Source of the DNA: Geotalea uraniireducens Rf4
GTDB lineage: Bacteria > Desulfobacterota > Desulfuromonadia > Geobacterales > Geobacteraceae
DNA: 32,000 nucleotides
NCBI RefSeq assembly: GCF_000016745.1
Contig: NC_009483.1
Location: 870,001 to 902,000, forward strand
Direction of reading: 5' to 3'
Shown: positions 9,664 to 28,301 of the stretch, piece after piece
Layout: the number at the start of each line of letters is the position of its first letter
Numbering within the stretch: position 1 is the stretch's first letter
Position numbers and translations under genes: made by a program
The notes under the pieces: generated by a model
What the model was told of the DNA's origin: nothing
Databases searched by the model: none
What the model saw: the letters and a program-made list of their open reading frames with translations, nothing else

Positions 9664-12600
9664 ATGAACAGACGATTAATCGGAATTGTGCTCACCATGA
9701 TGATGTTGGCGCTCTTTTCCCACGGCCAGGCGGTTACAGCAGAGGCGTCCGCATTACCGGATACCGCGACGGTCCCCCAGCCGGTGCTGGTGAAGGACAT
9801 CAATGCCTCGAAACTCGGCAGCTCGTCGAACGCGAACGGCTTCGTCGCGGTGGGGGGTGTTACCTTTTTCAGCGCCAATGACGGGGTGCATGGCCAGGAG
9901 CTCTGGAAGAGCGACGGCACGGAGGCGGGTACGGTGTCGGTCAAAGACATCAACCCCAACGGTGATTCTTATCCACAAAACCTGACCGGCGTGGGCGGCG
10001 TCCTCTATTTCTCTGTCAGCGATCCGGCGAACGGCATTAGCCTCTGGAAGAGCGACGGCACGGATGCGGGTACGGTGCTGGTGAAGGATATCACTTCCAC
10101 CGTTGGTTCGTCACTTAATAGCCTGACCAACGTGGGTGGCGTGCTCTATTTTATGGCCGGCGACGGAGTGAGCGGCTATAGCGTCTGGAAGAGCGACGGC
10201 ACGGCGGCCGGGACGGTGGTGGTGAAGGATGCAGGTCCAATTGCACCGGGAAGTACAGAGTACTTTTTGATCTCAAACCTGACCAACGTGGGCAACGACC
10301 TCTATTTCACGATCAACCACCAGAATACCATCCATATGCTCTGGAAAAGCAACGCAACCGGGACGGAATTGGTGAATAATATCGGTCCGGTTACTCAAAT
10401 CGCAAATTTGACCGACGTGGGCGGCGTCCTCTATTTTGTCACCTATGACCCGGTAAGCAAATATGGGATTTGGAAAAGCGACGGCACTGCGTCCGGTGCG
10501 GTGTCGGTTAAGAATTTCGGTGCCTCTCAACCGTTCTACTTAACCAACGTCAATGGCGTACTGTATTTTAGCGCGTATGACGGGGTGAATGGCCAGGAAC
10601 TCTGGAGAAGCGATCCTACGGCTGGGGCGGTGCTTGTGAAGGACATTAATCCAACAAGCAGCTCGTTACCAAACGACCTGACCAACGTGGGCGGCGTCCT
10701 CTATTTTACCGCCAACGACGGGACGAACGGGACCGCGCTCTGGAAGAGCGACGGCACGGCGAACGGGACAGTGCTGGTGAAGGGTGGCGCCGGTATATCA
10801 AACTTGACCAGCGTGGGCGGCGCCCTCTATTTCGTCGCGAACGGCACGGAGCTCTGGAAGAGCGACGCCACGGCCGGGGCGGTGCTGGTGACCAATTTAG
10901 GTTCAGCCTCAACACTTAGTGTTAATGTATCAAACCTGACCAATGCGGGCGGTGTCCTCTATTTCACCGCCTCCGGCGTAAACGGCATGGAGCCCTGGAA
11001 GAGCGACGGCACGGCTGCCGGGACAATGATGCTGAAGCAAATCTTCTCCGGCACGGGACCTTCGATAGAGCCGAGGAGGGATGTAAATCCGGTGGTCAAC
11101 GTGAACGGCGTCCTCTATTTCACCGCGATCTCTGATCTGGTGGACGGCCTGGGTCTCTGGAAGAGCGACGGCACGACGGCGGGGACAACGCTGGTGAAGG
11201 GTTTCGGTGTAGGTAAAGTGAGTGTCTCAAATCTTACCAACGTGAACGGCGTCCTCTATTTCGTCAATAATGATGTCGGTATCTGGAAGAGCGATGGTAC
11301 GGAGGTGGGTACGGTGCTTGTGAAGGATTTCAATGCAATTGGTCTTACTCCCTCAAACCTGATCGACGTCAACGGAGGCCTCTATTTCAGCACCTACGAC
11401 AGGTCGAACTTCGGTGCTCTCTGGAAAAGCGACGGTACGGATGCGGGGACGATTCAGATGAAGTTGTTTGGTTCTGGTTCCGCTCCCACGAGCTTGACCA
11501 ACGTGGGCGGCGTTCTCTATTTCAGCGCCGGCGAAGGGGCAATGGGCACTGAGCTTTGGAAGAGCGACGGCACGGAGACGGGTACGGTACAGGTGAAGAA
11601 TATCTATACCGGCGACGGCAACAGCTCTAATCCTTCAAACCTGACCAACGTGGGCGGAGTCCTCTATTTCACCGCCACCGACGCAGTGAACGGCACTGCC
11701 CTCTGGAAAAGCGATGGCACGGATGCGGGTACGGTGCTGGTGAAGGTCGTCACTCCTGTCGGAGGTATTCCGGCATTCATGTTTTATTCTTCCGCCAATG
11801 TCAACGGCGTCCTCTATTTTACCGTCTTTGATAAAGGCTACAGCCTCTGGAAGAGTGATGCCGCGTCAGGGGCGGTGTTGGTGACAAATTTTCCAGCCGG
11901 CTCACCCTATAACATTACGAACGTCAACGGCACCCTCTATTTTTTCTATGATAGCATGACCGCCAGCGGCACTGAACTCTGGAAAAGTGACGGCACGGAG
12001 GCCGGGACGGTGGTTGTGAAGACGGTAAATCTGGGCATTAGCAATAAAGTAAAGGGTGACGTGCCCGTTCCCGCGCCCATTCCCGTCAAGGGGTTGGCTA
12101 AGACGGTGGCAATGAGTGGTCCTAGAGTCGGGCCTTCCGCAACCCTGGTTGAGGTCAACGGTGTTCTCTATTTCACCGCCTATGACGCGGCGCACGGCTT
12201 TGAACTCTGGAAGAGCGACGGCACGGCGGACGGCACGGCCATGGTGATGGATATCTTTCCCGGCGCAGGCAGTTCGTACCCCGCAAGCCTGATCAATGTC
12301 AACGGCGCCCTCTTCTTTAACGCGGATGACGGCTTTCATGGCAATGAGCTCTGGGTCTTGAGGATGAATTCCGCAACCGCGCTAGCCACCGGGGCGACCC
12401 CTACGACCTACGGCCAATCCGTGACCTTCACCGCTTCCGTAACCAGCGGGGCCACCGGCACGGTGACCTTCGGCGAAGGCGACACGACCTATTGCGCCGG
12501 CGTTGCCCTGGACAACAGCGGCAAGGCCGCCTGCAGCACAACATCGTTGGGTACAGGGGCGCACACCATAACCGCAACCTACAGCGGCGACGGCCATTAC

Positions 12601-13389
12601 AACGGCTCCAACGCAACCGTCAGCCAGACCGTAAATCAGGCGAGCTCCACCACCACGGTAACCACCGGGATGACCACCTCGACCTACGGCCAATCCGTGA
12701 CCTTTACAGCTTCCGTAACAAGCGGGGCGACCGGCACGGTGACCTTTGCCGAAGGCGCAACGATGTATTGCTCCGCGGTTGTCCTGGACGGAAACGGCAA
12801 GGCAGCGTGCAGCACGACCGCTCTGGGTGCCGGGTCGCACACCATGACCGCAACCTACAGCGGGGACGGCACCTACAAGGGCTCCAACGGAACAGTCGGG
12901 CAAAGCGTAGTCGCTGCGGTCCTGACCGTTACGGCCGACAGCAAATCCAGAAACTACGGCTCTGCCAACCCGACCATGACCGCCACCTATTCCGGCTTCG
13001 TCAACAATGACACCCAGGCAAGCCTGAGCGGCGCCCCGGGCATAACTACCTCGGCAACAACGGTCAGCCCGGCCGGCAACTACCCGATCACCATCACCGT
13101 GGGTACGCTTGCATCGGGCAACTACAGCTTCAATTTCGTCAACGGCATCATGGCGGTCAGTTTATCGGCCGCGGCCAGCGGCGACATTAACAGTGACGGC
13201 AAGGTGGATATCAGCGATGCCCTTATGGCATTGCAGATGGCGATTGGACTGTCCGCCTCCACTCCAACCCAACTGACAGCCGGTGACGTGGCCCCGCTGG
13301 TGAACGGCAAGTCGGCGCCGGACGGAACAATCGACATCGCCGACGCCATGCTGATCCTTGAAAAGGCGGTCGGCCTGCTGAATTGGTAG
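9664..13389 (+). CDS. Secreted ELWxxDGT-repeat protein (about 18 repeats) with 2 Ig-like (Big_3_5-type) domains, an MBG-like domain and a C-terminal dockerin-like module
   Basis: AAGGAG RBS. Signal peptide MNRRLIGIVLTMMMLALFSHGQA. There are 18 units of the form '..LTNVGGVLYF.A.DG..G.ELWKSDGT.AGTVLVKDI'. Two copies of 'TYGQSVTFTASVTSGATGTVTF.EG....C..V.LD..GKAACSTT.LG.G.HT.TATYSGDG.Y.GSN'. MBG-like 'YGSANPTMTATYSGFVNNDT...AGNYPITI...GNYSFNFVNG'. The tail is 'GDINSDGKVDISDALMALQMAIGL...GDVAPLVNGKSAPDGTIDIADAMLILEKAVGLLNW'. Confidence 0.9.
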   Translation: MNRRLIGIVLTMMMLALFSHGQAVTAEASALPDTATVPQPVLVKDINASKLGSSSNANGFVAVGGVTFFSANDGVHGQELWKSDGTEAGTVSVKDINPNGDSYPQNLTGVGGVLYFSVSDPANGISLWKSDGTDAGTVLVKDITSTVGSSLNSLTNVGGVLYFMAGDGVSGYSVWKSDGTAAGTVVVKDAGPIAPGSTEYFLISNLTNVGNDLYFTINHQNTIHMLWKSNATGTELVNNIGPVTQIANLTDVGGVLYFVTYDPVSKYGIWKSDGTASGAVSVKNFGASQPFYLTNVNGVLYFSAYDGVNGQELWRSDPTAGAVLVKDINPTSSSLPNDLTNVGGVLYFTANDGTNGTALWKSDGTANGTVLVKGGAGISNLTSVGGALYFVANGTELWKSDATAGAVLVTNLGSASTLSVNVSNLTNAGGVLYFTASGVNGMEPWKSDGTAAGTMMLKQIFSGTGPSIEPRRDVNPVVNVNGVLYFTAISDLVDGLGLWKSDGTTAGTTLVKGFGVGKVSVSNLTNVNGVLYFVNNDVGIWKSDGTEVGTVLVKDFNAIGLTPSNLIDVNGGLYFSTYDRSNFGALWKSDGTDAGTIQMKLFGSGSAPTSLTNVGGVLYFSAGEGAMGTELWKSDGTETGTVQVKNIYTGDGNSSNPSNLTNVGGVLYFTATDAVNGTALWKSDGTDAGTVLVKVVTPVGGIPAFMFYSSANVNGVLYFTVFDKGYSLWKSDAASGAVLVTNFPAGSPYNITNVNGTLYFFYDSMTASGTELWKSDGTEAGTVVVKTVNLGISNKVKGDVPVPAPIPVKGLAKTVAMSGPRVGPSATLVEVNGVLYFTAYDAAHGFELWKSDGTADGTAMVMDIFPGAGSSYPASLINVNGALFFNADDGFHGNELWVLRMNSATALATGATPTTYGQSVTFTASVTSGATGTVTFGEGDTTYCAGVALDNSGKAACSTTSLGTGAHTITATYSGDGHYNGSNATVSQTVNQASSTTTVTTGMTTSTYGQSVTFTASVTSGATGTVTFAEGATMYCSAVVLDGNGKAACSTTALGAGSHTMTATYSGDGTYKGSNGTVGQSVVAAVLTVTADSKSRNYGSANPTMTATYSGFVNNDTQASLSGAPGITTSATTVSPAGNYPITITVGTLASGNYSFNFVNGIMAVSLSAAASGDINSDGKVDISDALMALQMAIGLSASTPTQLTAGDVAPLVNGKSAPDGTIDIADAMLILEKAVGLLNW
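9886..12365 (+). repeat. Intragenic array of about 18 ELWxxDGT coding repeats, each ~120-165 nt
   Basis: The 21-nt core 'ctctggaagagcgacggcacg', or a close variant, recurs 18 times. Examples are near 9901, 10045, 10186, 10739, 11157, 11701 and 12208. Confidence 0.85.
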
Positions 13390-13429
13390 TGCTAACTGAT
13401 AAGAATCCAAAGACATACGAGGAGATGAT

Positions 13430-14575
13430 ATGAAGAGATTTGTGAGCATTGCATCGTTACTGCTATTAATACTCGTCCTTGCCGGTTGCGGCGAAGATCC
13501 GGCGAATTCCTCCGGCACCAAGGTCACAGGCTTTGCCTCCAAGGGGCCGATCGTGAACGGCGTCATCAAGATATATTCGGTCAAAGACGGCGTAAAAACA
13601 TTTATCAAACAGACCACCACCGACGCCAACGGCAACTACAGCGCCGACCTCGGCGCCTACACCGGACCGATCATAGCCGAGGCGAGCGGCTCCTACCTGG
13701 ACGAAGCCACAGGTTTAACCAAGACCATATCAGCCGACTCACCTCTCCACGCCGCACTGCCGTTGGCACAGGGCACTGTCAATCTGCCGGTAACAGCCCT
13801 CACCGAACTAGCCTTCACCAAGGCAGGGAGCACCCTGAGCGCATCCACAATAAGCGCGGCCAACACCCTTGTCTCCGATCTCTTCAAGGTGGACATCATC
13901 GCCACCTCGCCGGTTGCGCCTACGACTGAAGCTCTTAAAACCGCCACCCAGGCCCAGAAGGACTACACTTTGGCTTTGGCGGCCATTTCCCAGATGGCCA
14001 GCACGTCAGCCGGAACCAGCGACACCGACAAACTGAACAACGCGCTGACGACCACGGGGCAGGGAATATCGTCCACCGGCATGACCACTGCAACGGTTAA
14101 CGCCATCCAGAGCGCCCTGACTGCTTTCGTGAGCAACGCCAACAACAAGACCGGCATCAGCGACACCTCCACCACCAGCCTGGTGAACGTCGGCACCCTG
14201 TCCAAGAGCTATAAGCTGATGCTCCAGGGGACTTTCACCCCCGGCAGCGTTACCGGCATTCAGTTCGATCTGTCTCTCCCGGCCGGTGTCACCCTTAATG
14301 TCGACAATTCCACCTCGGCGGTCCTGGCCAGCAGCCTGGCCCTTTCGGGCGCTGCGCCTTCCGGCGCCCTGCTGTCGGCCCATTACTCGTCCGGCGCGCT
14401 GACCGTCGGCATTATCACCACAAGCAGGTTCAGCACCGGCGAGGTAGCCACGTTGACCTGCAATATCCCGGCTGGAGTGAGCGCGCCCAGCGCCTCCTTA
14501 TTCTCCGCAGCCAACCTCAGGAGCATCGACAAAAACGGCGCCACCGTGGCGGGAATCATGATCACCATCAAGTAA
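13430..14575 (+). CDS. Lipoprotein: N-terminal CarboxypepD_reg-like 'SKGPI' beta-sandwich, helical middle, C-terminal cohesin-like beta-sandwich
   Basis: GAGGAG RBS and ATG 13430, 40 nt after the stop of 9664..13389. Lipobox LVLAGC. 'SKGPIVNGVIKIYSV...TTTDANGNYSADLG.YTGPIIAEASGSYLDEATG'. The C-terminus reads 'VTGIQFDLSLPAGVTLNV...GALTVGIITTSRFSTGEVATLTCNIPAGV...DKNGATVAGIMITIK'. It is a paralog of 26200..27360. Confidence 0.85.
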   Translation: MKRFVSIASLLLLILVLAGCGEDPANSSGTKVTGFASKGPIVNGVIKIYSVKDGVKTFIKQTTTDANGNYSADLGAYTGPIIAEASGSYLDEATGLTKTISADSPLHAALPLAQGTVNLPVTALTELAFTKAGSTLSASTISAANTLVSDLFKVDIIATSPVAPTTEALKTATQAQKDYTLALAAISQMASTSAGTSDTDKLNNALTTTGQGISSTGMTTATVNAIQSALTAFVSNANNKTGISDTSTTSLVNVGTLSKSYKLMLQGTFTPGSVTGIQFDLSLPAGVTLNVDNSTSAVLASSLALSGAAPSGALLSAHYSSGALTVGIITTSRFSTGEVATLTCNIPAGVSAPSASLFSAANLRSIDKNGATVAGIMITIK

Positions 14576-14590
14576 CGGAACACGTAAAAG

Positions 14591-14626
14591 GGGACGGGTT
14601 GCTTTTTCAATAAAGCGGCCTGTCCC
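14591..14626 (+). terminator. Stem-loop downstream of 13430..14575 (candidate terminator, no T-tract)
   Basis: 'gggacgggttgc' pairs with 'gcggcctgtccc' (12 bp including 3 G-U pairs). It is homologous in position and sequence to the hairpin at 27372..27420. Confidence 0.35.
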
Positions 14627-15192: not shown

Positions 15193-15505
15193 ATGCTTCA
15201 AAACATGATCTTCATTGATCACGCAGGGCAGTTGGCAGCGGCAGCTGGTGTGCCGCTGTATAGCTCCGACCTGTATATGCCCCGCCAATGTAGGGGCCGG
15301 CAGCATCTATTTCTGGGGGCAGGAGTTGACCATCCACACCTTGGCGGCGAAAAGGCCCGAGGGGTGCGCCGACAACTGTGAAAGGGCGAAAGCGGTGCGG
15401 CACTGTGTTGCCGATATCATCAGACTGCCGCTCCTGCTTCCCGATGATTTCGATTATCCGGGGATGATCGCCGAGATCGTACGTCTTCGGCGTGAGCGGC
15501 GACCG
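15193..15505 (+). pseudogene. Internally deleted, frameshifted copy of the 17226..18086 gene (N-terminal ~25 codons joined out of frame to the C-terminal ~75 codons)
   Basis: Frame 1 'AGQLAAAAGVPLYSSDLYMP' matches 'SAQLAAALGVPFFSTGLYMP' of 17226. At ~15282 the similarity jumps to frame 2, where 'ANVGAGSIYFWGQELTIHTLAAKRPE...LPLLLPDDFDYPGMIAEIVRLRRER' matches 'ANVRADVIYFWGQELTIHTLAAKKPE...LPLLLPEDFDYPGMVAEVVRRRRER'. The whole methyltransferase-fold core is missing. Confidence 0.6.
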
Positions 15506-16015
15506 GACACCGTCAAGGAAGAAGCCGCCCCGGCGATCACCCTGCGTCCCATAGCCGATGACGACCTGGAATTTCTCTTTCATCTCTACGCTTCAACCCG
15601 CGCCGGAGAGAAAGAGCTTGTCGGATGGAGGGACGAACAGTGGGAAGTGTTCATGCGGATGCAGTTCAATCTCCAGCACAGTCAATACATGCAGAATTAC
15701 GAGCAGCCGTCCTTTGACGTCATCATGCTCGGCGATACTCCTGTTGGCCGGTTGTATGTCAATCGGGGAGAGGATGAGATTCGCATCGTCGATATTTCCC
15801 TGCTCCCCGAGTATCGCGGTCGCGGCATCGGGGCCGATTTGTTGAGGAGCATCCTCCAGGAGGGGGATGACAAAGGGGTCCCGGTGACACCCCACGTGGA
15901 ATGGACCAACCCCGCCCTGGCGCTGTATCAACGGCTCGACTTCCAGGAGGAAGGCTTTGCGGAGGTCTACTGTTTCATGAAGCGGCTCCCTGGGCAGTCA
16001 TTATCCATTCACTGA
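15464..16015 (+). CDS. GNAT family N-acetyltransferase (start uncertain; the reading frame is open from 15215 and continuous with the pseudogene tail)
   Basis: 'ITLRPIADDDLEFLFHLY...VGRLYVNRGEDEIRIVDISLLPEYRGRGIGADLLRSIL...NPALALYQRLDFQEEG' contains the GNAT acetyl-CoA motif (R/Q-x-x-G-x-G/A). The first in-frame ATG is at 15464 (MIAEIV...), and its SD is weak. Confidence 0.6.
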   Translation: MIAEIVRLRRERRPDTVKEEAAPAITLRPIADDDLEFLFHLYASTRAGEKELVGWRDEQWEVFMRMQFNLQHSQYMQNYEQPSFDVIMLGDTPVGRLYVNRGEDEIRIVDISLLPEYRGRGIGADLLRSILQEGDDKGVPVTPHVEWTNPALALYQRLDFQEEGFAEVYCFMKRLPGQSLSIH

Positions 16016-16710: not shown

Positions 16711-16758
16711 GTGGCGCTGCAACATGAAAATAAACATAAAAACATCAAGGAGAACATT

Positions 16759-20029: not shown

Positions 20030-23000
20030 ATGTCGATAAGGATGACATCAGCTAAAATATTGCGTGGAAGGATCAGCTTTGTCGCAACTTTGTTGTGCAT
20101 GGTTCTGACACAGCCTCTCTCGTCATTTGCCGCGAGTGTTACTCTGGATGCTGCCGATGATGTGTATACAGATAGCAGCCGCATTCCAACTGCCGGTTAT
20201 ACTACTACCGACATGGCGTCCGTTAAAGATGACTCCATGTCGAAGATAGTTAACTATGTGGGGCGTACGCCCAGCATATCTGTGTTAAATGGAAGGACTG
20301 TTGTTAAGTTTAATCTGTCCGGTATCAGTGGCGCTATCAATTCCGCGTCGTTCAAATTTAATGTTATCGACATACACGGTACCCCGATTTTGAATCTGAT
20401 AAAGGTGACTGACAATAGCTGGAGCGAACAGCCTGTTGGAGCATCGACCTTCCCGACATACACTGATACAGATTATATTACACAGAATTCTACCCCATAC
20501 TCCAACCAGAGTGTAACTACCGGCTGGAATAATATTAATGTCAAGGATTACATACAGGAGAAAATAAATGCGGGCTCACCGTATGTGACAATAGCAATGA
20601 CCGGATATGCCACCGGAGCGACTGATGATGACTTTGACTTCGTCAGCTTGAATAATGGGGACGCGTTGATACCGACGCTCACGGTCGACTACACCCCTCC
20701 TCCCACCGTCACCGGCATCTCACCATCGAGCGGCCCGGTCGCCGGGGGTACCTCGGTCACCATCTCCGGCGCCAACTTCACCAGTGCTACCGCCGTCACG
20801 TTCGGCAGCACCAACGCCACCTCCTACACGGTCAACTCCGCCACCCAGATCACGGCTACCTCACCGGCCGGTTCCGCCGGGACGGTGGATATCACCGTCA
20901 CTACGGCTGGCGGCACCAGCGCCACCGGTGCATCGGACCAATTCACCTATATCGCCGCACCCACGGTCACAAGCATAAGTCCCACCAGTGGACCGACCGA
21001 CGGAAGCACTTCAGTCACCATCACCGGCACTAACTTCACCGGTGCCACCACTGTGACTATCGGTGGCGCTGCCGCCACCAGCGTTACAGTTGTCAACGCC
21101 ACTACCCTCACCGCCACCACCCCGTCAGGCACGGCGGGTGTCAGGGACGTGGTCGTCACGACACCTGGAGGCACGGGCACTGGCACCGGCCTGTTTACCT
21201 ATAAGGCCAGCCAGACCATCACCTTTAACAGCCCCGGGGCACAAAACTTCGGCACCACCCCGACGCTGACGGCAATCGCTTCATCCGGCCTCACTCCGAC
21301 CTTTACCTCGTCAACCACCGGCGTCTGTACCATCACCTCCGGCGGCGCCCTGACTTTCGCCACCACCGGCACCTGCACCATCAACGCCGGCCAGGCGGGC
21401 GACAGCACTTACTTAGCGGCCCTGCCGGTTTCGCAATCATTCAGCGTAGCCGCCGTGGTTCCCGGCGCCCCGACCATCGGCACAGCAACGGCGGGCGACA
21501 CCCAGGCCAGCGTTACCTTCACGGCGCCGGCTTCGAACGGCGGCGCTTCGATTACCGGTTATACAGCCACGTCCAATCCGGGTGGCGTGACCGGCACCTG
21601 CGCCTCCAGCCCGTGCACCGTGACCGGTCTGACCAACGGCACGGCCTACACCTTCACCGTGACGGCAACCAACAGCGCGGGCACCGGCAGCGCGTCGGCG
21701 GCATCGAACTCGGTCACCCCGGCAGCGGCCCAGACCATCACGTTCAACAACCCGGGTGCGCAGAATTTCGGCATCGCACCGACGCTGACCGCGACGGCCA
21801 GCTCGGGGCTGATGGTCTCCTTCACGTCGAGCACCACGGGCGTGTGTACTGTCACCGCGGGCGGTGCGCTGACCTTCGTCACGGCCGGTACCTGTACCAT
21901 CAATGCGGACCAGGCGGGCAATGGAAGCTTTACGGCAGCGCCAATGGTGACGCGGTCGTTCGCGGTCAATGCCGTGGTTCCGGGCGCGCCGACCATCGGC
22001 ACAGCAACGGCGGGTGACACGCAGGCAAGTATCACATTCTCTGCCCCGGCCTCGAACGGCGGCGCTTCAATCACCAGCTACACCGCCACGTCCAATCCGG
22101 GCGGCTTGACCGGCACCTGCGCCTCCAGTCCGTGTACTGTGACCGGCCTGACCAACGGCACGGCCTACACCTTTACCGTGACGGCAACCAATAGCGCGGG
22201 CACCGGCAGTGCGTCGGCGGCATCGAACTCGGTCACTCCGGCAGCGGCCCAGACCATCACGTTCAACAACCCGGGTGCGCAGAACTTCGGCACTAGTCCG
22301 ACCTTGACGGCTACGGCCACATCCTCCCTGACGGTCACCTTCACCTCCTCGACCACCGGTGTCTGCACCGTCACCGCGGGCGGTGCGCTGACCTTCGTCA
22401 CCACCGGCACCTGTACCATCAATGCGGACCAGGCGGGCAATGGCAGCTTCCTGGCCGCCACCACGGTTTCCCGCTCATTTACCGTCATCGCCGTGGTCCC
22501 CGGTGCGCCCACCATCGGCATCGCCACCGCAGGCGACACCCAGGCCAGCGTTGCCTTCACCGCTCCGGTCAGTAATGGCGGAGCTTCAATCACCGGTTAC
22601 ACGGTCACCTCTAACCCCGGCGGCCTCACCAGCTCCGGCGCGTCCAGCCCGATCACGGTCACTGGCCTTACCAACGGCACCGCCTACACCTTCACCGTCA
22701 CGGCGCACAACAGCGCCGGCACCGGCAGCGCCTCATCAGCCTCCAACTCCGTGACACCGAACCCCGGTCCCACAGTGGTCAACGTGGCCGTCCCCGCCAA
22801 TGGCATCTACAAGGCCGGCAGCAACCTGGACTTCACCGTTACCTGGGACAGCGCCGCTACCGTCACCGGCACGCCGCGCATCGCCCTGTTGATCGGCAGC
22901 GCCATGGTTTATGCCACCTACCAGAGCGGATCTGGCACTGCCTCCACCCTGTTCCGCTATACCGTCCTGCCCGGCCAGACCGACACCGATGGCATCACCG

Positions 23001-26000
23001 TCGGCGCGCTCTCGCTGAACGGCGGCACCATCCAGAACAGCAGCGGCACCGATGCCACCCTGACCCTGAACAGCGTCGCCTCCACCGTCAACGTGCTGGT
23101 CGATACCACGGCGCCGACCTTGAGCAGCATCGCCACGAGCAACCCGACCCATAGCGGCGGCACGTTGACCGCAACGGCCAACGAAAATGCACTCGGCTCC
23201 TGGATCGCGGTCTCCTCTAGCGCTACGGCACCAACCGTTGCCCAGGTGCTGGCCGGCGCCGACTATGGCGGCGTAACCGTCGTTGCTCACGGCAGCGGTG
23301 CGCTATCGGCGGGCAGCGCGGTCAGCTTTAGCCTTTCCGGGCTTGTCGCCGCTACGAGCTATGACATCTACCTGGCCGCACAGGACGCCGCCGGAAACCC
23401 GAGTGCCGCAGTTTCGAGCGCCACCCTGATCACGACCACGACCCGCGTCGTCACCACCAGCAGTGACAGCGGCCCCGGTTCGTTGCGCCAGACAATTGCC
23501 GATGCCAACCCCGGCGACATCATTCTCTTCGACCCCAGCCTGAGCGGCCAGACGGTAACTATTGCCTCGCCGCTCGTCATTGCCAAGGATCTTTCCATCG
23601 GCGGTTACGACGCTAGACCCATTACCATCAACGGTGGTGGCACGACCCGAATCTTCCAGGTGAGCGGCAGCACCACTTTCACGTTAAATTATCTCACCCT
23701 GACTGACGGCGTCGCCACCGATGGTGGGGCGATTTCAGACAACGTCAACGCAACCACCTTTATCAGCCTTTGCACTTTCAGCGGCAACACTGCCACTGCC
23801 GCCGGCGGCGCCATCTCCGCGGCAGGAACCATGAGCATCAGCGACACCCTCTTTGCCGGCAACAGTGCCGTTCAGGGTGGTGCCATCTTCAACAACAATG
23901 CCCTGAGTCTGGTCAACGTCACCTTGGCCAACAACAGCGCAAACAGCGGCGGCGGCATATACAGCTCCGGCGGGAGCACCCTCGTCAAAAATACCACCAT
24001 AGCCGGCAACAACGCCACCGTACAGGGCGGGGGAATCGAGATTGCAAGCGGCGCGGTCGGCTTCAGGAACAGCATCGTGGCCGGCAACACCTCCCCCAGC
24101 GGCCCGGACATCTCCGGCTTTGCCACCTCCCTGGGATACAACCTGGTCAAGGACACCTCCGGCGCTACCTTCACCGTTACGACCGGCGATCTCACCGGCC
24201 AGGACCCGCTCCTTGGCCCCCTTGCCGACAATGGCGGACCGATTAAAACCATGGCACTCTTACTGGGCTCCCCGGCCATCGACAGCGGCGCCTGCACCGG
24301 AGCCTCTGCCACTGACCAGCGCAGCATGCCGCGGCCGCAGAACGGTCTGTGCGACATGGGCGCCTATGAGCGGGGCGTACCGGCCGCGCTGACGGCAACC
24401 GGCGGCACCCCCCAGTCCGCTGCCATCGATGCCGCGTTCGCCACCCCGCTCAAGGCCAAGGTAACCGACTCTCTGGGGGGCGTGATGGAAGGCATCAGTG
24501 TAACCTTTGCCGGGCCCGGCAGCGGTGCCGACATCACCGCCGACGGCAGCGTCACCACCGATGCAGCGGGCATCGCTTCCTATGGCGTCACTGCCAACGG
24601 GACCGCAGGAGCATACACGGTCACGGCAACGGTCAATGCCCTTATCGCAAACTTCAACCTGACCAACGACAAGGCGAACCAGGCCATCACCTTCAATCCG
24701 CCGGCCACGGCCACCTTCGGCGATGCGCCCATCGCCCTCTCCGCCACGGGCGGGGCCTCGGGCAATCCGGTCATCTTCTCGGTCGCCAGCGGACCGGGCA
24801 GTCTGAACGGCGCAACCCTGACCATCACCGGCGCCGGCAACATCGTCGTCACCGCCTCACAGGCCGGAAACGCCAACTACAATGCCGCTCCACAGGTAAT
24901 CCGGAATATCGCCATCGGCAAGGGCGCCGCCACCATCGCCCTGGGGAGCCTGAACGCCACCTACGACGGCACGGCCAAGGCTGTTACCGCCACCACAACC
25001 CCGGCCGGCCTGGCGGTCATCGTTACCTACGGCGGCAGTTCAACTCCCCCCACGGCGGCGGGGAGCTACCCGGTGGCGGCCACCATCGACGACGCCAACT
25101 ACAGCGGCACGGCCACCGGAACCCTGGTGATCGCCTACAGCGCCACTCCGCCTGTCCTGACCATTTCCACCCTGGCTGACGGCAGCGTCACCAACAACGC
25201 CACCCTCAACGTCAGCGGCCAGGCCACCAGCATCAACGGTATCACGTCTGTCACCGTCAACGGCGCGGCCGTGACCCTGGCCGCCGACGGCACGTTCTCC
25301 CAGGCCGTCACCCTGCAAGCGGGCACGAACACCGTCACCACCATTGCCACGGACAACGCCGGGACAACAACGACCGACAGCCGCACCATCACCCTGGACA
25401 CCACCGCTCCGGTCATCACCATCACCACGCCGGCCGACAACAGCACACTCGCCGCATCGTCGGTCACCATAACCGGCAGCGTGGACAAGAACGCCACGGT
25501 GCAGGCAACCGCTAACTCGGGCTCGCCCCAATCAGCGGCCATGACCAACAACACCTTCACCGTCACCCTCAACCTGGCGGGCGGCTCGAACACCATTGTT
25601 ATCAGCGCCACTGACCTGGCGGGCAACAGCGCCTCGGTCAAGCGCACCATCGTCTCCGACACCACCAAGCCGACCCTGGCCATCACCAACCCGTCCCAGG
25701 ATATCACCATCAGCGAACCGGCGCTGACCATCTCCGGCACAGTAACCGATGCCCTCACGGACGTCAGCGTCACCATCACCTGCGACGGTAAGACCTACAC
25801 GCCCCAGGTGGTAGACGGCGCCTTCCAGCAGCAGCTCACCTTTGTCATGGCCAAGCAATACGCCATAACCGTAACCGCCACGGACCAGGCCGGCAACAGC
25901 GTCACCACGCAGCGGAACGTGATCTATGCCTTGTCATCGCTTCCTTCCGGCGACATCAACGGGGACGGCAAGGTGGACATTGCAGATGCCCTTTTGGCAT

Positions 26001-26158
26001 TGCAGATGGCGGTAGGGCTTATTACCCCCACATCGGCCCAACTGGCGACGGGCGACGTGGCCCCGCTGAGCAATGGCAAGCCCGCGCCGGATGGGGCCAT
26101 CGACATCGCCGACGCCATGCTGATACTCGAAAAGGCGGTCGGGATGCTGACTTGGTAG
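20030..26158 (+). CDS. Giant (2042 aa) secreted mosaic adhesin: DNRLRE-like N-domain, 2 IPT/TIG, 3 x (Ig-like + FN3), Ig-like domains, right-handed beta-helix (choice-of-anchor-Q-like), Big_1-like, MBG-like, further Ig-like domains and a C-terminal dockerin-like module
   Basis: GGGGAGG RBS. Signal peptide '...ISFVATLLCMVLTQPLSSFAASV'. IPT/TIG 'PTVTGISPSSGPVAGGTSVTISGANFT.ATAVTFG'. FN3 'VPGAPTIGTATAGDTQASVTFTAPASNGGASITGYTATSNPGG...GLTNGTAYTFTVTATNSAGTGS'. Beta-helix 'GGAISA..T.....F.GN.A..GGAIFNN......N.T.A.N.A..GGGI...' ending in 'DQRSMPRPQNGLCDMGAYE'. The tail is 'GDINGDGKVDIADALLALQMAVGL...GDVAPLSNGKPAPDGAIDIADAMLILEKAVGMLTW'. Confidence 0.9.
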   Translation: MSIRMTSAKILRGRISFVATLLCMVLTQPLSSFAASVTLDAADDVYTDSSRIPTAGYTTTDMASVKDDSMSKIVNYVGRTPSISVLNGRTVVKFNLSGISGAINSASFKFNVIDIHGTPILNLIKVTDNSWSEQPVGASTFPTYTDTDYITQNSTPYSNQSVTTGWNNINVKDYIQEKINAGSPYVTIAMTGYATGATDDDFDFVSLNNGDALIPTLTVDYTPPPTVTGISPSSGPVAGGTSVTISGANFTSATAVTFGSTNATSYTVNSATQITATSPAGSAGTVDITVTTAGGTSATGASDQFTYIAAPTVTSISPTSGPTDGSTSVTITGTNFTGATTVTIGGAAATSVTVVNATTLTATTPSGTAGVRDVVVTTPGGTGTGTGLFTYKASQTITFNSPGAQNFGTTPTLTAIASSGLTPTFTSSTTGVCTITSGGALTFATTGTCTINAGQAGDSTYLAALPVSQSFSVAAVVPGAPTIGTATAGDTQASVTFTAPASNGGASITGYTATSNPGGVTGTCASSPCTVTGLTNGTAYTFTVTATNSAGTGSASAASNSVTPAAAQTITFNNPGAQNFGIAPTLTATASSGLMVSFTSSTTGVCTVTAGGALTFVTAGTCTINADQAGNGSFTAAPMVTRSFAVNAVVPGAPTIGTATAGDTQASITFSAPASNGGASITSYTATSNPGGLTGTCASSPCTVTGLTNGTAYTFTVTATNSAGTGSASAASNSVTPAAAQTITFNNPGAQNFGTSPTLTATATSSLTVTFTSSTTGVCTVTAGGALTFVTTGTCTINADQAGNGSFLAATTVSRSFTVIAVVPGAPTIGIATAGDTQASVAFTAPVSNGGASITGYTVTSNPGGLTSSGASSPITVTGLTNGTAYTFTVTAHNSAGTGSASSASNSVTPNPGPTVVNVAVPANGIYKAGSNLDFTVTWDSAATVTGTPRIALLIGSAMVYATYQSGSGTASTLFRYTVLPGQTDTDGITVGALSLNGGTIQNSSGTDATLTLNSVASTVNVLVDTTAPTLSSIATSNPTHSGGTLTATANENALGSWIAVSSSATAPTVAQVLAGADYGGVTVVAHGSGALSAGSAVSFSLSGLVAATSYDIYLAAQDAAGNPSAAVSSATLITTTTRVVTTSSDSGPGSLRQTIADANPGDIILFDPSLSGQTVTIASPLVIAKDLSIGGYDARPITINGGGTTRIFQVSGSTTFTLNYLTLTDGVATDGGAISDNVNATTFISLCTFSGNTATAAGGAISAAGTMSISDTLFAGNSAVQGGAIFNNNALSLVNVTLANNSANSGGGIYSSGGSTLVKNTTIAGNNATVQGGGIEIASGAVGFRNSIVAGNTSPSGPDISGFATSLGYNLVKDTSGATFTVTTGDLTGQDPLLGPLADNGGPIKTMALLLGSPAIDSGACTGASATDQRSMPRPQNGLCDMGAYERGVPAALTATGGTPQSAAIDAAFATPLKAKVTDSLGGVMEGISVTFAGPGSGADITADGSVTTDAAGIASYGVTANGTAGAYTVTATVNALIANFNLTNDKANQAITFNPPATATFGDAPIALSATGGASGNPVIFSVASGPGSLNGATLTITGAGNIVVTASQAGNANYNAAPQVIRNIAIGKGAATIALGSLNATYDGTAKAVTATTTPAGLAVIVTYGGSSTPPTAAGSYPVAATIDDANYSGTATGTLVIAYSATPPVLTISTLADGSVTNNATLNVSGQATSINGITSVTVNGAAVTLAADGTFSQAVTLQAGTNTVTTIATDNAGTTTTDSRTITLDTTAPVITITTPADNSTLAASSVTITGSVDKNATVQATANSGSPQSAAMTNNTFTVTLNLAGGSNTIVISATDLAGNSASVKRTIVSDTTKPTLAITNPSQDITISEPALTISGTVTDALTDVSVTITCDGKTYTPQVVDGAFQQQLTFVMAKQYAITVTATDQAGNSVTTQRNVIYALSSLPSGDINGDGKVDIADALLALQMAVGLITPTSAQLATGDVAPLSNGKPAPDGAIDIADAMLILEKAVGMLTW
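21206..22762 (+). repeat. Three perfect-period tandem coding repeats of 519 bp (173 aa: Ig-like + FN3)
   Basis: The units start at 21206, 21725 and 22244 ('A[SA]QTITFN.PGAQNFG...SNSVTP'). The antisense shadow ORFs 21646..22074 and 22165..22593 are also offset by exactly 519 nt. Confidence 0.9.
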
Positions 26159-26199
26159 TAATAAAGGATATGAATCCGAAGATATTACGAGGAGATAAC

Positions 26200-27360
26200 A
26201 TGAAGATATTTGCAACCATAGCATCGTCGCTGCTGTTAATGCTTGTCATCACCGCCTGTGGCGGCGGTTCCAGTCCCACTCCCGTCGCCGCCAACACCAC
26301 CGTCTCCGGCATCGCCTCCAAGGGCCCGATCGTCAACGGCGTAGTCAAGATATATTCGGTCATAGACGGCGCCAAAAGCACACTGCTCGCCCAGACCACC
26401 ACCGACGCCAACGGCAACTACACCGCCAATCTCGGCAGCTACGTGGGTCCGATCATAGTCGAGGCGAGCGGTTCCTACCTGGACGAAGCCACCGGCACCA
26501 CCAAGACCATTCCAGCGGATTCTCCCATCCACGCCGCGCTCCCCTTGGCGCAGGGCGCGGTCAACCTGCCGGTAACGGCCCTAACCGAACTTGCCTACAT
26601 CAAGACCGGGGGCGACCTGACCGCATCGGCAATCAGCACAGCCAACACCCTGGTCTCCGATCTCTTCAAGGTAGACATCATCGCCACCTCGCCGGTTGCG
26701 CCTACGACTGAAGCTCTTAAAACCGCCACCCAGGCCGAGAAGGACTACACCCTGGCTTTGGCGGCCATTTCCCAGATGGCCAGCACGACAACCGGAGCCA
26801 GCGACACCGACAAACTTAACAATGCGCTGTCGACCATGGGACAGGGCATATCATCCACCGGGATGACCTCCGATACCGCCGCCACGGTCCAGGCTGCCCT
26901 GACCACCTTTGTCACTACCAACGCCAACAACAATACCGGCGTCAGCGACACCTCCACCACCAGCCTGGTAAACATCGGCACCCTGTCCAAGAGCTATAAG
27001 CTGGTGCTCCAGGGAACATCCACCCCCGGCAGCGTTACCGGCCTTCAGTTCAATATCTCTCTCCCGGCCGGCGTCACCGTCAATGTCAACAGCTTAACCT
27101 CGGCCGTCCTGGCCAGCAGCCTCGCCCTTTCTAGCAATCCATCTTCAAGCTCATTGCTGGCGGCAAAATACTCACCCGGCAGCCTAAACATTGGCATTGT
27201 TAATACAAGCGGGTTCAGCGTTGGCGACGTGGCCACCTTGACCTGCAACATCCCCGCTGGAGTGAGCGTACCCGAGCCCTCAGCCTTCACCGTCACCAAC
27301 CTCAAGAGCATCGACAAATTAGGCGCTACCGTGACAGGAGCCACGATTACAGTTAATTAA
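26200..27360 (+). CDS. Lipoprotein, a paralog of 13430..14575 (SKGPI beta-sandwich, helical middle, cohesin-like C-terminus)
   Basis: The ORF is open from 26152, but GAGGAG plus ATG 26200 gives MKIFATIASSLLLMLVITAC (lipobox). It is collinear with 13430..14575 over its full length, and the C-terminus reads 'VTGLQFNISLPAGVTVNV...GSLNIGIVNTSGFSVGDVATLTCNIPAGV...DKLGATVTGATITVN'. Confidence 0.85.
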   Translation: MKIFATIASSLLLMLVITACGGGSSPTPVAANTTVSGIASKGPIVNGVVKIYSVIDGAKSTLLAQTTTDANGNYTANLGSYVGPIIVEASGSYLDEATGTTKTIPADSPIHAALPLAQGAVNLPVTALTELAYIKTGGDLTASAISTANTLVSDLFKVDIIATSPVAPTTEALKTATQAEKDYTLALAAISQMASTTTGASDTDKLNNALSTMGQGISSTGMTSDTAATVQAALTTFVTTNANNNTGVSDTSTTSLVNIGTLSKSYKLVLQGTSTPGSVTGLQFNISLPAGVTVNVNSLTSAVLASSLALSSNPSSSSLLAAKYSPGSLNIGIVNTSGFSVGDVATLTCNIPAGVSVPEPSAFTVTNLKSIDKLGATVTGATITVN

Positions 27361-27371
27361 ACGAAAGAATC

Positions 27372-27420
27372 AAAGGGGGGCGGCTGCTTTTTAAATAGAG
27401 CAAAATGCCCCCTTTTTTTT
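27372..27420 (+). terminator. Rho-independent terminator of the 20030..27360 operon
   Basis: 'aaaggggggc' ... 'gcccccttt' stem followed by a T8 run (27413-27420). Confidence 0.6.
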
Positions 27421-27433
27421 CAATAATCATAAC

Positions 27434-27648: not shown

Positions 27649-27696
27649 TGACCCCGTCTGCGGTTGACCCCGTCTGCGGTTGACCCCGTCTGCGGT
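27649..27696 (+). repeat. Perfect 3 x 16-bp direct tandem repeat 'tgaccccgtctgcggt' in the leader of 27780..28301
   Basis: I read it directly: 27649-27664, 27665-27680 and 27681-27696 are identical. Confidence 0.95.
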
Positions 27697-27779
27697 TTTG
27701 TTGCAATAGCCGACACTGTTGCCATTGCCGTCAGGGCGCATGCAATGCGCCCCTACAAAACCAACCGGGAGAACAAACC

Positions 27780-28301
27780 ATGACAAAAAATATACTGAAT
27801 CACCTGACGCTGACGCTGACACTGTTAACCCTTGCCGCCTGCGGCGGGGGTGGAGGAGGAGGGGGGGCGACCGTCACCCCGACCGTCTACACAACCGCAA
27901 CGGTCAAGATCGCCCTGACCGGCACCTTGCCGACAGACACCGCCATCATCGGTGCCGTCTTGACCCTGACGCTGCCGGACAACGTTATCCCGGAACTGGT
28001 CAACGGAGCCGTGGCAGGCAGCGTTGTCACGCCGTCCGGTGTCTTTGCCGGAGGGGCGCTGATTCCGGTGGTTTACAAGGAGGCTACAGCATCTGCCCCC
28101 GGCATGGTGGTGATTGGCCTTGCCAGCGCCGCGGCAACGGGTGTTGCCGAAACAGGTGAGGTAGCCACCGTCACCCTGCGCCTGACCAACAGCGCCGCGC
28201 CGACCGCCGGAAGTTTTACGCTGGATCAGACGGTGACTGATACCTCGGGCAAAGTCGTCAGCGGTTTGAGTGCGACGGTGAGTGGGGTGACGCTGCAGTA
28301 G
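27780..28301 (+). CDS. Small lipoprotein consisting of a lipobox, a Gly8 linker and a single cohesin-like beta-sandwich
   Basis: GGGAGA RBS. 'MTKNILNHLTLTLTLLTLAACGGGGGGGG'. The body reads 'TATVKIALTGTLPTDTAIIGAVLTLTLPDNV...PGMVVIGLASAAATGVAETGEVATVTLRLTNSAAP...DTSGKVVSGLSATVSGVTLQ', which is the same strand pattern as the C-termini of 13430 and 26200. Confidence 0.8.
   Translation: MTKNILNHLTLTLTLLTLAACGGGGGGGGATVTPTVYTTATVKIALTGTLPTDTAIIGAVLTLTLPDNVIPELVNGAVAGSVVTPSGVFAGGALIPVVYKEATASAPGMVVIGLASAAATGVAETGEVATVTLRLTNSAAPTAGSFTLDQTVTDTSGKVVSGLSATVSGVTLQ

What the first reader, a model, noticed from the sequence alone, without database searches (positions are those of the whole stretch)
9664..28301. 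Candidate cohesin-dockerin-type surface display system in a diderm: two giant dockerin-tailed proteins, each followed by a cohesin-like lipoprotein, plus a third minimal cohesin-like lipoprotein
Both giant secreted proteins (9664..13389 and 20030..26158) have unrelated bodies: one is an ELWxxDGT propeller-like array, the other an IPT/FN3/beta-helix mosaic. Yet they end in the same ~70-aa module: 'GDINSDGKVDISDALMALQMAIGL(9-10 aa)GDVAPLVNGKSAPDGTIDIADAMLILEKAVGLLNW' and 'GDINGDGKVDIADALLALQMAVGL...GDVAPLSNGKPAPDGAIDIADAMLILEKAVGMLTW'. This is the duplicated arrangement of an EF-hand-like DxNxDGxxDxxD calcium loop followed by a helix that defines dockerins. In both cases the next gene starts ~40 nt downstream with its own RBS. 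It encodes a lipoprotein whose last ~130 aa alternate short hydrophobic strands in a cohesin-like pattern ('VTG.QF..SLPAGVT.NV ... G.L..GI..TS.FS.G.VATLTCNIPAGV ... DK.GATV.G..IT'). A third lipoprotein (27780..28301) is only a lipobox, a Gly8 tether and one such domain. The cargo domains look adhesive (propeller, Ig, FN3, IPT, beta-helix) rather than like glycoside hydrolases. If the pairing is real, it would be a lipid-anchored, non-cellulosomal docking system for very large adhesins. I do not know of a characterised system with this arrangement in Geobacter-like bacteria.
Basis: partly seen in the sequence, partly recalled or inferred. Interest (0 to 1): 0.8.

Follow-up and report, generated by a model that had tools for sequence, protein, structure and literature searches.

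The report
Lipoprotein-anchored cohesin–dockerin display modules in Geobacter
In this Geobacter-family bacterium, very large secreted proteins end in a small calcium-loop "plug" (dockerin), and the next gene encodes a lipid-anchored protein with the matching "socket" fold (cohesin); this gene pair recurs in about 55 related loci, so it is probably an unannotated way of hanging big proteins on the cell envelope, though binding itself has not been tested.

Summary
All five ORFs, both about 70-aa tails, the lipoboxes and the 40/41-nt spacers with a GGAG RBS are as described. The window is Geotalea uraniireducens.

- **Dockerin:** the isolated tail passes Pfam Dockerin_1 (29.1 bits, cut-off 22.9). 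39 of 53 related tails also match, and a tail profile hits only dockerins in the PDB.
- **Cohesin:** the lipoprotein C-domain shows no usable cohesin sequence signal. Its confident AlphaFold model (pLDDT 91) returns cohesins as the top 19 PDB fold matches (2xdh, TM 0.60-0.63).
- **Linkage:** 55 of 59 lipoproteins carrying this C-domain lie directly downstream of a tail-ending gene. Only 1 of 12 relatives that keep the N-terminal domain but lack the C-domain do.
- **Duplication:** tail, spacer and lipoprotein were duplicated as one unit (80% DNA identity) behind unrelated cargo.

New points: the two large lipoproteins also have an N-terminal module whose fold resembles the non-heme domain of the Geobacter lipoprotein cytochrome PgcA. 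Cargo elsewhere includes a multicopper oxidase, not only adhesin-like proteins.

Binding, calcium dependence and surface exposure remain untested. Verdict: a new variant of a known kind; interest about 0.6.

The parts
9664..13389 (+). Cargo gene A. Sec signal peptide, 18 ELWxxDGT repeats, 2 Big_3_5 domains, MBG_2 and a C-terminal dockerin tail.
13180..13386 (+). Dockerin-type tail of cargo A (residues ~1173-1241). The first loop, DINSDGKVDISD, is canonical. The second loop, GDVAP..(8-aa insert)..DGTIDIAD, is atypical. The protein ends in W.
   Evidence: Isolated tail scores 29.1 bits on PF00404, above the 22.9 cut-off. The tail profile hits only dockerins in the PDB.
13390..13429 (+). 40-nt spacer with a GGAG RBS. 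It is homologous to the spacer at 26159-26199.
13430..14575 (+). Lipoprotein A (381 aa). Lipobox LAGC with Cys20. N-module: residues 30-252 (nt 13517-14185). Cohesin-fold C-domain: residues 255-381 (nt 14192-14572).
   Evidence: AF2 pLDDT 91. Foldseek results. HMM domain coordinates.
20030..26158 (+). Cargo gene B (ABQ24965.1, deposited as 'polymorphic outer membrane protein'). Signal peptide, TIG x2, fn3 x3, choice-of-anchor Q / PMP beta-helix, MBG_3, Glucodextran_B x3 and a dockerin tail.
25949..26155 (+). Dockerin-type tail of cargo B (residues ~1974-2042).
26200..27360 (+). Lipoprotein B (386 aa). Lipobox ITAC. N-module at nt 26296-26970 and cohesin-fold C-domain at nt 26977-27357. 74% identical to lipoprotein A.
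27365..27420 (+). Terminator-like GC hairpin followed by a T-run, right after lipoprotein B. It suggests cargo B plus lipoprotein B form an operon that ends here.
   Evidence: Read directly from the sequence. The pattern scan did not list it.
27780..28301 (+). Lipoprotein C (173 aa). Lipobox LAAC, a Gly8 tether and one cohesin-fold domain. It has no tail-bearing gene directly upstream in this window.
   Evidence: C-domain HMM E 2.5e-11. Pfam Cohesin 18 bits, E 0.003, below the cut-off. Family search.

Best explanation
These are two copies of a bicistronic cargo-plus-anchor module, with one extra anchor.

Proposed mechanism:
1. Each cargo protein is a very large multidomain protein exported by Sec. 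It ends in a dockerin-type module with two Ca2+-loop/helix repeats.
2. The gene 40 nt downstream encodes an outer-membrane lipoprotein. After the lipid anchor and a short Gly/Ser tether comes a stalk (transthyretin-like sandwich plus helical domain, with a fold like the N-terminal non-heme domain of the Geobacter lipoprotein cytochrome PgcA), then one cohesin-fold domain.
3. The cohesin-fold domain binds the dockerin tail non-covalently, probably in a Ca2+-dependent way. This holds the cargo on the cell envelope, most likely on the outer face.
4. The third, minimal lipoprotein is the same socket on a Gly8 tether.

Shown here: domain identities, predicted folds, conserved adjacency, duplication as a unit, and co-occurrence of the tail with the C-domain.

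Inferred: the physical binding, its calcium dependence, the topology (outer versus periplasmic face) and the route across the outer membrane (probably type II secretion).
For: Dockerin:
- PF00404 gives 29.1 bits for the isolated tail, above the gathering score, and 39 of 53 tails match it.
- The 53-tail profile hits only dockerins in the PDB; the best are 7.5e-5 and 1.4e-4.

Cohesin fold:
- The C-domain model has pLDDT 91.3.
- Foldseek ranks 1-19 are all cohesins. 2xdh gives TMq 0.63, TMt 0.60, rmsd 3.6 A over 122 columns.
- The same cohesins appear when the full-length model is used.

Genetic linkage:
- In 67 genome loci found through the lipoprotein alone, 55 of 59 lipoproteins with the C-domain have a gene ending in the tail directly upstream. 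The median gap from tail end to first lipoprotein domain residue is 155 nt.
- Of 12 relatives that have the N-module but no C-domain, only 1 does (Fisher p 6e-9, not corrected for phylogeny).
- Minimal C-only lipoproteins also follow tail-bearing genes: L019, L024, L046, L069, L076, L115 and L116.

Modularity:
- Tail, spacer and lipoprotein are duplicated as a unit at 80.4% DNA identity, behind unrelated cargo.
- N-only relatives carry NHL, collagen plus Lcl_C, sortilin/BNR or Big_1 domains fused directly to the stalk. These are the same classes of passenger that appear with a tail in other loci. This fits a role for the lipoprotein as an anchor for passengers.

Other:
- The tail lies at the extreme C-terminus in nearly all of the top 150 proteins carrying it.
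- Cargo B has a choice-of-anchor Q domain. As I recall it, that family is named for occurring with alternative C-terminal anchoring signals.
- Lipoboxes and signal peptides are read directly from the sequence.
Against: - There is no sequence-level cohesin signal for lipoA or lipoB. Pfam finds nothing, and the best cohesin in a PDB profile search has E 0.47. Homology to cohesins is therefore not demonstrated.
- Foldseek E-values are modest (about 1e-3) and TM-scores are 0.5-0.63.
- Within the full-length giants, Dockerin_1 scores below the cut-off (19.0 and 16.5 bits).
- The second Ca2+ loop is non-canonical, with an 8-residue insertion.
- A distance-matrix (mirror-tree) test showed the tail tracking the C-domain no better than the N-domain (r 0.47 versus 0.48).
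- Of 11 strongly matching tails in metagenome contigs, only 4 have the lipoprotein next door. One more (L068) has a divergent lipoprotein.
- lipoC in this window has no adjacent partner.
- L012, L014 and L018 have the lipoprotein without an upstream tail.
- No complex prediction or binding test was possible, and surface exposure is unproven.
Confidence: 0.72

Rival explanations
1. The same two modules interact, but the lipoprotein sits on the periplasmic face of the outer membrane. It would act as a transient escort, pilot or retention factor for the giant protein (a secretion or folding helper), not as a stable surface anchor.
For: - The lipoproteins have Gly at position +2, so they would go to the outer membrane. 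Nothing in the sequence shows outward flipping.
- No dedicated outer-membrane transporter gene lies in the window.
- Tight translational coupling (40-nt spacer) is typical of a chaperone with its substrate.
Against: - The N-module has a fold match to the non-heme domain of PgcA. PMC11520253 describes PgcA as a lipid-anchored protein transported through the outer membrane.
- N-only relatives carry collagen-like, Lcl_C, NHL and BNR passengers, which are typical of surface adhesins.
- Some relatives have two tandem cohesin-fold domains (L006, L008). That looks like a scaffold rather than a chaperone.
Confidence: 0.13
2. The tail and the C-domain do not bind each other. The tail is a Ca2+-binding, EF-hand-like stabilising or matrix-binding module. 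The lipoprotein C-domain is a generic beta-sandwich (Ig- or CBM-like) that binds something else, such as polysaccharide or mineral. The genes are co-transcribed only because they act in the same process.
For: - The C-domain shows no cohesin sequence signal.
- Lower-ranked fold matches include CBMs and adhesin Ig folds.
- Some tails also weakly match EF-hand and FG-GAP models.
- Many tails occur without an adjacent lipoprotein.
- The mirror-tree test was not specific.
Against: - The top 19 fold matches are all cohesins.
- The tail tracks the presence of the C-domain, not the rest of the lipoprotein: 55/59 versus 1/12.
- C-only mini-lipoproteins still follow tails.
- Tail and lipoprotein are duplicated together.
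Confidence: 0.12
3. The pattern is an artefact: chance ORFs or low-complexity similarity.
For: The proteins are rich in Thr, Ser, Gly and Ala.
Against: - Exact database counterparts exist.
- There are strong Pfam and NCBIfam domain hits.
- The structure models are confident.
- There are hundreds of homologues and conserved synteny.
Confidence: 0.01

Closest known systems
Non-cellulosomal cohesin-dockerin pairs (for example Archaeoglobus fulgidus cohesin 2xdh; the survey by Peer et al. 2009, cited in PMC9012536)
   Same: - Single cohesin-fold and dockerin modules attached to proteins that are not glycoside hydrolases.
- There are no large scaffoldins.
- The best structural match of the C-domain is exactly this archaeal non-cellulosomal cohesin.
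   Different: - Here the socket is on a lipoprotein of a diderm bacterium.
- The plug and socket genes form a conserved adjacent pair.
- The socket domain is too diverged to be recognised by Pfam PF00963.
- I could not read Peer et al. 2009 (not held), so I cannot say whether Geobacter proteins were listed there.
Cellulosome (type I, II and III cohesin-dockerin, Clostridia and Ruminococcus)
   Same: - A Ca2+-loop dockerin at the C-terminus of the cargo, with a cohesin on a cell-bound anchoring protein.
- The closest dockerin sequence matches are the R. flavefaciens dockerins 5m2s_B and 5m2o_B.
- Two relatives (L006, L008) have two tandem cohesin-fold domains, like a mini-scaffoldin.
   Different: - No CAZyme cargo and no CBM-bearing scaffoldin.
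- The anchor is an N-terminal lipid, rather than SLH domains or sortase.
- The host is a metal-reducing diderm.
- The second Ca2+ loop carries an 8-residue insertion (GDVAPLxxGxxxPDG).
Cohesin/dockerin-domain adhesins noted in genomes of ANME archaea and their sulfate-reducing partners (PMC9012536, PMC10553843)
   Same: - Diderm Thermodesulfobacteriota (the sulfate-reducing partners) with cohesin/dockerin-domain proteins.
- These were proposed to mediate adhesion or to attach proteins to the cell surface.
   Different: - Those were found by domain annotation and were not resolved into a cargo-plus-lipoprotein gene pair.
- The Geobacteraceae lipoprotein family described here carries no cohesin annotation at all.
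PgcA of Geobacter sulfurreducens (lipoprotein cytochrome; non-heme domain structure 9i0d)
   Same: - An N-terminal lipid anchor followed by a ~200-aa non-cofactor domain that carries passenger domains.
- Best Foldseek hit of the full-length lipoprotein A model: E 2e-5 over 162 columns.
   Different: - PgcA's passengers (three heme domains) are fused covalently, and PgcA has no cohesin-fold domain.
- There is no detectable sequence similarity.
- TMt is only 0.45.

Membership tests
Dockerin type I (Pfam PF00404) | Score above the Pfam gathering threshold | tested here: met
   Isolated tail A scores 29.1 bits against a cut-off of 22.9. 39 of 53 related tails match at E<=0.1, best 3.5e-9. Inside the full-length giants the score is below the cut-off, at 19.0 and 16.5 bits.
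Dockerin type I (Pfam PF00404) | Two tandem segments, each a 12-residue Ca2+ loop (D-x-N/D-x-D-G-x-x-D-x-x-D) followed by a helix | tested here: inconclusive
   The first segment, DINSDGKVDISD plus helix, is canonical. The second has the helix and the DGxIDxxD half, but an 8-residue insertion follows the first Asp (GDVAPLVNGKSAPDG). This was read from the sequence. No structure model of the tail was made.
Dockerin type I (Pfam PF00404) | Ca2+-dependent binding to a cohesin | not testable with these tools
   This needs a binding assay or a multimer prediction.
Cohesin (Pfam PF00963) | Sequence match above the Pfam gathering threshold | tested here: not met
   lipoA and lipoB give no hit. lipoC scores 18 bits against a cut-off of 24.1. 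Only 1 of 39 family C-domains matches at E<=1. A PDB profile search gives its best cohesin at E 0.47.
Cohesin (Pfam PF00963) | Cohesin-type beta-sandwich (jelly-roll) fold | tested here: met
   The AF2 model has pLDDT 91.3 and eight strands of 3 or more residues. Foldseek ranks 1-19 are all cohesins; 2xdh gives TMq 0.63 and TMt 0.60. This is a predicted fold, not a solved one.
Cohesin (Pfam PF00963) | Binds a dockerin | not testable with these tools
   The support is indirect only: conserved adjacency and co-occurrence.
Cellulosome | Multi-cohesin scaffoldin with a CBM, and dockerin-bearing glycoside hydrolases | tested here: not met
   There is one cohesin-fold domain per lipoprotein here, and two in L006 and L008. 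No CBM or GH domains occur in cargo A or B or in 10 sampled cargos.
Bacterial lipoprotein | Signal peptide ending in a lipobox L-[AS]-[GA]-C | tested here: met
   The lipoboxes are LAGC, ITAC and LAAC at residues 17-22, read from the sequence. The Cys is invariant in the 45-member alignment.
PgcA-type N-terminal non-heme domain | Shared fold with 9i0d | tested here: inconclusive
   Foldseek gives E 2e-5, probability 1.00 and 162 aligned columns, but TMt is 0.45 and identity 18%. The hit is absent when only the C-domain is searched. There is no sequence-level hit.

The most novel reading that the evidence does not exclude
Geobacteraceae and their relatives may have a general, modular surface-display system built on one lipoprotein stalk, the same kind of stalk that carries the heme domains of PgcA. 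The stalk either carries passengers covalently or, through a highly diverged cohesin, recruits separately encoded dockerin-tailed giants. Those giants include adhesin-like arrays and at least one multicopper oxidase.

If real, this would be, as far as I know, the first natural lipid-anchored cohesin-dockerin system described in a diderm. At least about 1,300 tail-bearing protein clusters are in public data. The system could contribute to attachment to minerals, electrodes or partner cells.
Probability: 0.45. Interest if true: 0.72.

Novelty: new variant of a known kind. Interest (0 to 1): 0.6.

Why it matters
The roles of non-cellulosomal cohesin-dockerin modules remain unclear (PMC9012536). 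This system would offer a simple two-gene, one-plug-one-socket case in a bacterial group where gene deletions are routine. That makes the question directly testable.

It would also explain how very large secreted proteins, currently annotated only as "hypothetical" or "polymorphic outer membrane protein", stay attached to Geobacter cells. It assigns a function to a lipoprotein family with no annotation (more than 200 members of the large type and more than 100 of the small type).

The fold match links that family to the unexplained N-terminal domain of PgcA. Finally, naturally orthogonal plug-socket pairs on a diderm lipoprotein could be useful for surface display in electroactive bacteria.

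Tried and rejected
1. A word-indexed homologue search with the 76-aa tail returned only 4 candidates and was uninformative.
2. Profile searches with the lipoprotein family (A2) and the C-domain (A4) against PDB sequences gave no significant cohesin or PgcA hit. A per-member Pfam scan of 39 C-domains gave one weak cohesin hit. The cohesin call therefore rests on fold alone.
3. A mirror-tree test on 49 tail/C-domain/N-domain triplets gave r(T,C) 0.47, r(T,N) 0.48 and similar partial correlations of 0.24 and 0.26. This shows co-inheritance, but it does not identify which domain the tail contacts.
It was redone with database sequences.
5. Reverse test from the tail side. The first alignment was too diverse. 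It is therefore a small and biased sample.
6. Peer et al. 2009 is not held. No paper combining dockerin with Geobacteraceae names described this system.
7. An exact look-up of lipoC's encoding contig found nothing on record, although the protein itself is in the database (P0122).
8. I considered other known C-terminal sorting signals (PEP-CTERM, T9SS CTD, LPXTG and similar). NCBIfam and Pfam gave no such hit on the tails, only a non-significant "flexitail" match at E 0.09.
Full report
**1. What is in the window**

The window matches Geotalea (formerly Geobacter) uraniireducens. Lipoprotein A is 100% identical to a protein on a 5,136,364-bp contig of that species. Cargo B is ABQ24965.1, deposited as "polymorphic outer membrane protein". 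The species belongs to Thermodesulfobacteriota, order Geobacterales, and I take it to be diderm from general knowledge.

- **Cargo A** (9664-13389, 1241 aa): a Sec-type signal peptide, 18 ELWxxDGT repeats (TIGR04534, E 1e-222), two Big_3_5 domains and an MBG_2 domain.
- **Cargo B** (20030-26158, 2042 aa): a signal peptide, two TIG and three fn3 domains, a choice-of-anchor Q / PMP-repeat beta-helix, MBG_3 and three Glucodextran_B Ig-like domains.

The two bodies are unrelated. blastp finds only the last ~105 residues in common (64% identity, E 1.5e-30).

Each cargo gene is followed, after 40 or 41 nt containing GGAG, by a lipoprotein gene. These are 13430-14575 (lipobox LAGC) and 26200-27360 (lipobox ITAC). 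A third small lipoprotein gene (27780-28301; LAAC followed by Gly8) stands alone. It lies downstream of a terminator-like hairpin at ~27365-27420 and a 420-nt gap.

**2. The tail is a dockerin**

Within the full-length giants, Pfam Dockerin_1 scores below its cut-off (19.0 and 16.5 bits against 22.9). Scanned on its own, tail A scores 29.1 bits (E 1.2e-6), above the cut-off.

I collected 53 non-identical tails from related loci, and 39 of them match Dockerin_1 (best E 3.5e-9). A profile built from those 53 tails, searched against all PDB sequences, returns only dockerins. The best are the R. flavefaciens dockerins 5m2s_B (7.5e-5) and 5m2o_B (1.4e-4).

The first repeat (DINSDGKVDISD plus helix) is a canonical dockerin Ca2+ loop. 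The second keeps the helix and the DGxIDxxD half, but has a conserved 8-residue insertion after the first Asp (GDVAPLvnGkpaPDG). The tail is therefore an atypical dockerin variant.

The tail is always at the very C-terminus, with at most 7 residues after it, and usually ends in W or F.

**3. The lipoprotein C-domain has a cohesin-type fold but no cohesin sequence signal**

Pfam finds nothing in lipoprotein A or B. In lipoprotein C it finds a sub-threshold Cohesin match (18 bits, E 0.003). Profile searches against PDB sequences and a per-member Pfam scan of 39 family C-domains also fail.

Structure prediction tells a different story.

- **Full-length lipoprotein A** (45-sequence alignment, pLDDT 91.1) has three parts. 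These are a beta-sandwich (residues 31-118), a helical domain (123-253) and a second beta-sandwich (257-380).
- **The C-domain alone** (pLDDT 91.3) was searched against the PDB with Foldseek. Ranks 1-19 are all cohesins (non-cellulosomal and types I, II and III). The first is the non-cellulosomal cohesin of Archaeoglobus fulgidus, 2xdh (TMq 0.63, TMt 0.60, rmsd 3.6 A over 122 columns, E 1.3e-3).

E-values are modest, so I treat this as "cohesin-type fold, homology not proven".

Lipoprotein C belongs to the same domain family (E 2.5e-11 against the C-domain HMM).

**4.

The best PDB fold match of the full-length model is 9i0d, the non-heme domain of PgcA (E 2e-5, 162 aligned columns, TMt 0.45). 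This hit disappears when only the C-domain is searched, so it belongs to residues ~30-253.

[quoted passage not shown] There is no sequence similarity between PgcA and the lipoprotein family, so the link is a lead rather than a finding.

**5. Gene adjacency is conserved and tracks the cohesin-fold domain**

A scan of one genome per species with the lipoprotein alignment returned 67 loci. Nearly all that carry both domains are from Geobacteraceae or Desulfuromonadales. I built HMMs for the tail (T), the N-module (N) and the C-domain (C) and scored all six-frame ORFs.

| Lipoprotein type | Tail-ending gene directly upstream | No such gene |
|---|---|---|
| Has the C-domain | 55 | 4 (L012, L014, L018, lipoprotein C of this window) |
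| N-module only, no C-domain | 1 (L054) | 11 |

- The median gap from tail end to the first lipoprotein domain residue is 155 nt.
- Fisher's exact test gives p = 6e-9. This is not corrected for shared ancestry.
- L054's C-terminal region may be a diverged version of the C-domain.
- Minimal lipoproteins with only the C-domain also follow tail-bearing genes. These are L019, L024 and L046 and L069 and L076. They also include L116 and L115, which carries a second G. uraniireducens paralogue of lipoprotein C (P0123).

The tail therefore goes with the socket domain, not with the stalk.

Two relatives (L006, L008) have two tandem C-domains. Four loci (L013, L027, L028, L042) have a second tail-bearing gene after the lipoprotein.

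**6. Modularity**

In the window, DNA 13179-14616 aligns with 25948-27401 at 80.4% identity. The unit of duplication is therefore tail, spacer and lipoprotein, placed behind different cargo.

Cargo in ten other loci is diverse. It includes NHL propeller, PKD, CHB_HEX_C, SdrD_B/prealbumin-like, fn3 arrays, thrombospondin-3 repeats with Lcl_C, and one multicopper oxidase (L045). That last protein passes Dockerin_1 at 29.4 bits even when scanned whole. Glucodextran_B Ig-like domains are present in eight of the ten.

The N-only lipoproteins carry the same sorts of passenger fused directly to the stalk: NHL, collagen plus Lcl_C, sortilin/BNR and Big_1. This fusion-versus-in-trans pattern is what one expects if the lipoprotein is an anchor for passengers.

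**7. How widespread it is**

- A profile of the two window tails plus one database fragment finds 7,038 protein clusters (50% identity) at E<=1e-3 and 1,288 at E<=1e-10, among 1.84 billion representatives. The match is at the extreme C-terminus in nearly all of the top 150.
- The large-lipoprotein family has at least 201 members and the small one at least 103. All are "hypothetical" or mis-named, and none has a cohesin annotation.

The reverse test, from tail to lipoprotein, is weaker. Among 11 metagenome contigs with a strong tail match (56 bits or more), 4 have the cohesin-fold lipoprotein immediately downstream. One has a diverged lipoprotein and 6 have none nearby. Partners encoded elsewhere in those genomes cannot be excluded.

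**8. Mechanism proposed**

1. The cargo is exported by Sec.
2. The cargo crosses the outer membrane, presumably by type II secretion. This step is inferred.
3. The dockerin tail plugs into the cohesin-fold domain of the co-expressed lipoprotein.
4. The lipoprotein's lipid anchor, Gly/Ser tether and PgcA-like stalk hold the complex on the cell envelope.

Steps shown here are domain identities, predicted folds, synteny, co-occurrence and modular duplication. Steps inferred are binding, Ca2+ dependence, topology and secretion route.

The main rival keeps the interaction but places it in the periplasm, with the lipoprotein as escort or pilot. A second rival denies the interaction altogether.

**9. 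Comparison with known systems, and novelty**

The system works like a cohesin-dockerin pair.

- **Dockerin membership:** met on score, and partly on motif.
- **Cohesin membership:** met on predicted fold, not on sequence.
- **Cellulosome:** it is not one. There are no glycoside hydrolases, no CBM and no large scaffoldin.

Non-cellulosomal cohesin and dockerin modules have been known since the late 1990s and 2000s (cited in PMC9012536). Cohesin/dockerin "adhesins" have been noted in sulfate-reducing partners of ANME archaea (PMC10553843).

I found no description of a conserved cargo-plus-lipoprotein gene pair, or of a lipid-anchored cohesin in a diderm, in the literature available to me. The key survey (Peer et al. 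2009) could not be read.

I rate it a new variant of a known kind, with interest about 0.6.

Noticed in passing
window 27649-27697: A perfect 3.1-copy tandem repeat of the 16-mer TGACCCCGTCTGCGGT, about 85 nt upstream of the lipoprotein C start codon. It could be a regulator-binding array. A LuxR-type two-component system lies just downstream (28548-31086).
   Followed up: partly
window 15215-18086: ORFs 16201-16710 and 17226-18086 are paralogues (both contain SPHEIESQELGCRYA...VTVIERDPEV...IRADALEWQPDE). The C-terminal part of 17226-18086 reappears at the N-terminus of the GNAT acetyltransferase ORF 15215-16015. This is a duplicated or rearranged block between the two cargo-lipoprotein modules.
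   Followed up: no
window 18209-19834: Two small adjacent ORFs (18209-18457 and 18512-18754) share a GGNGTTTF motif, which from memory resembles phage tail-collar / MdpB-like proteins. They are followed by a 344-aa protein with F5/8 type C plus cadherin-like domains and no signal peptide.
   Followed up: no
window 5363-8036 and 28548-31086: LuxR-family two-component systems (HisKA_3 kinase plus receiver-GerE regulator) flank the region on both sides. The upstream kinase has a 7TMR-DISM sensor domain. They may regulate the modules.
   Followed up: no
L045:7337-9850: The cargo of one related module is a multicopper oxidase with a Dockerin_1 tail (29.4 bits), followed by the cohesin-fold lipoprotein. 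Geobacter sulfurreducens OmpB and OmpC are outer-surface multicopper proteins, and OmpB is needed for Fe(III) oxide reduction (PMC5566968). Whether they use a related anchor was not checked.
   Followed up: partly
L033, L039, L044, L059-L067 (lipoprotein ORFs): Relatives of the lipoprotein N-module occur without the cohesin-fold domain, including in Betaproteobacteria MAGs. They carry fused passengers (BNR/sortilin, collagen plus Lcl_C, NHL, Big_1). None has a dockerin-tailed gene nearby.
   Followed up: yes
L006:9938-11431 and L008:9905-11458: These Geomonas lipoproteins carry two tandem cohesin-fold domains after the N-module, making a minimal two-socket scaffold.
   Followed up: partly
window 13517-14185 (lipoprotein A residues 30-252): The predicted fold of the N-module gives the PgcA non-heme domain (PDB 9i0d) as its best PDB match, with no sequence similarity. 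This may be a shared stalk for Geobacter surface lipoproteins.
   Followed up: partly
proteins P0159, P0174, P0178, P0194 and others: Some members of the small lipoprotein C family carry an extra InlB B-repeat / Listeria-Bacteroides repeat domain (PF18998, PF09479) in addition to the cohesin-fold domain.
   Followed up: no
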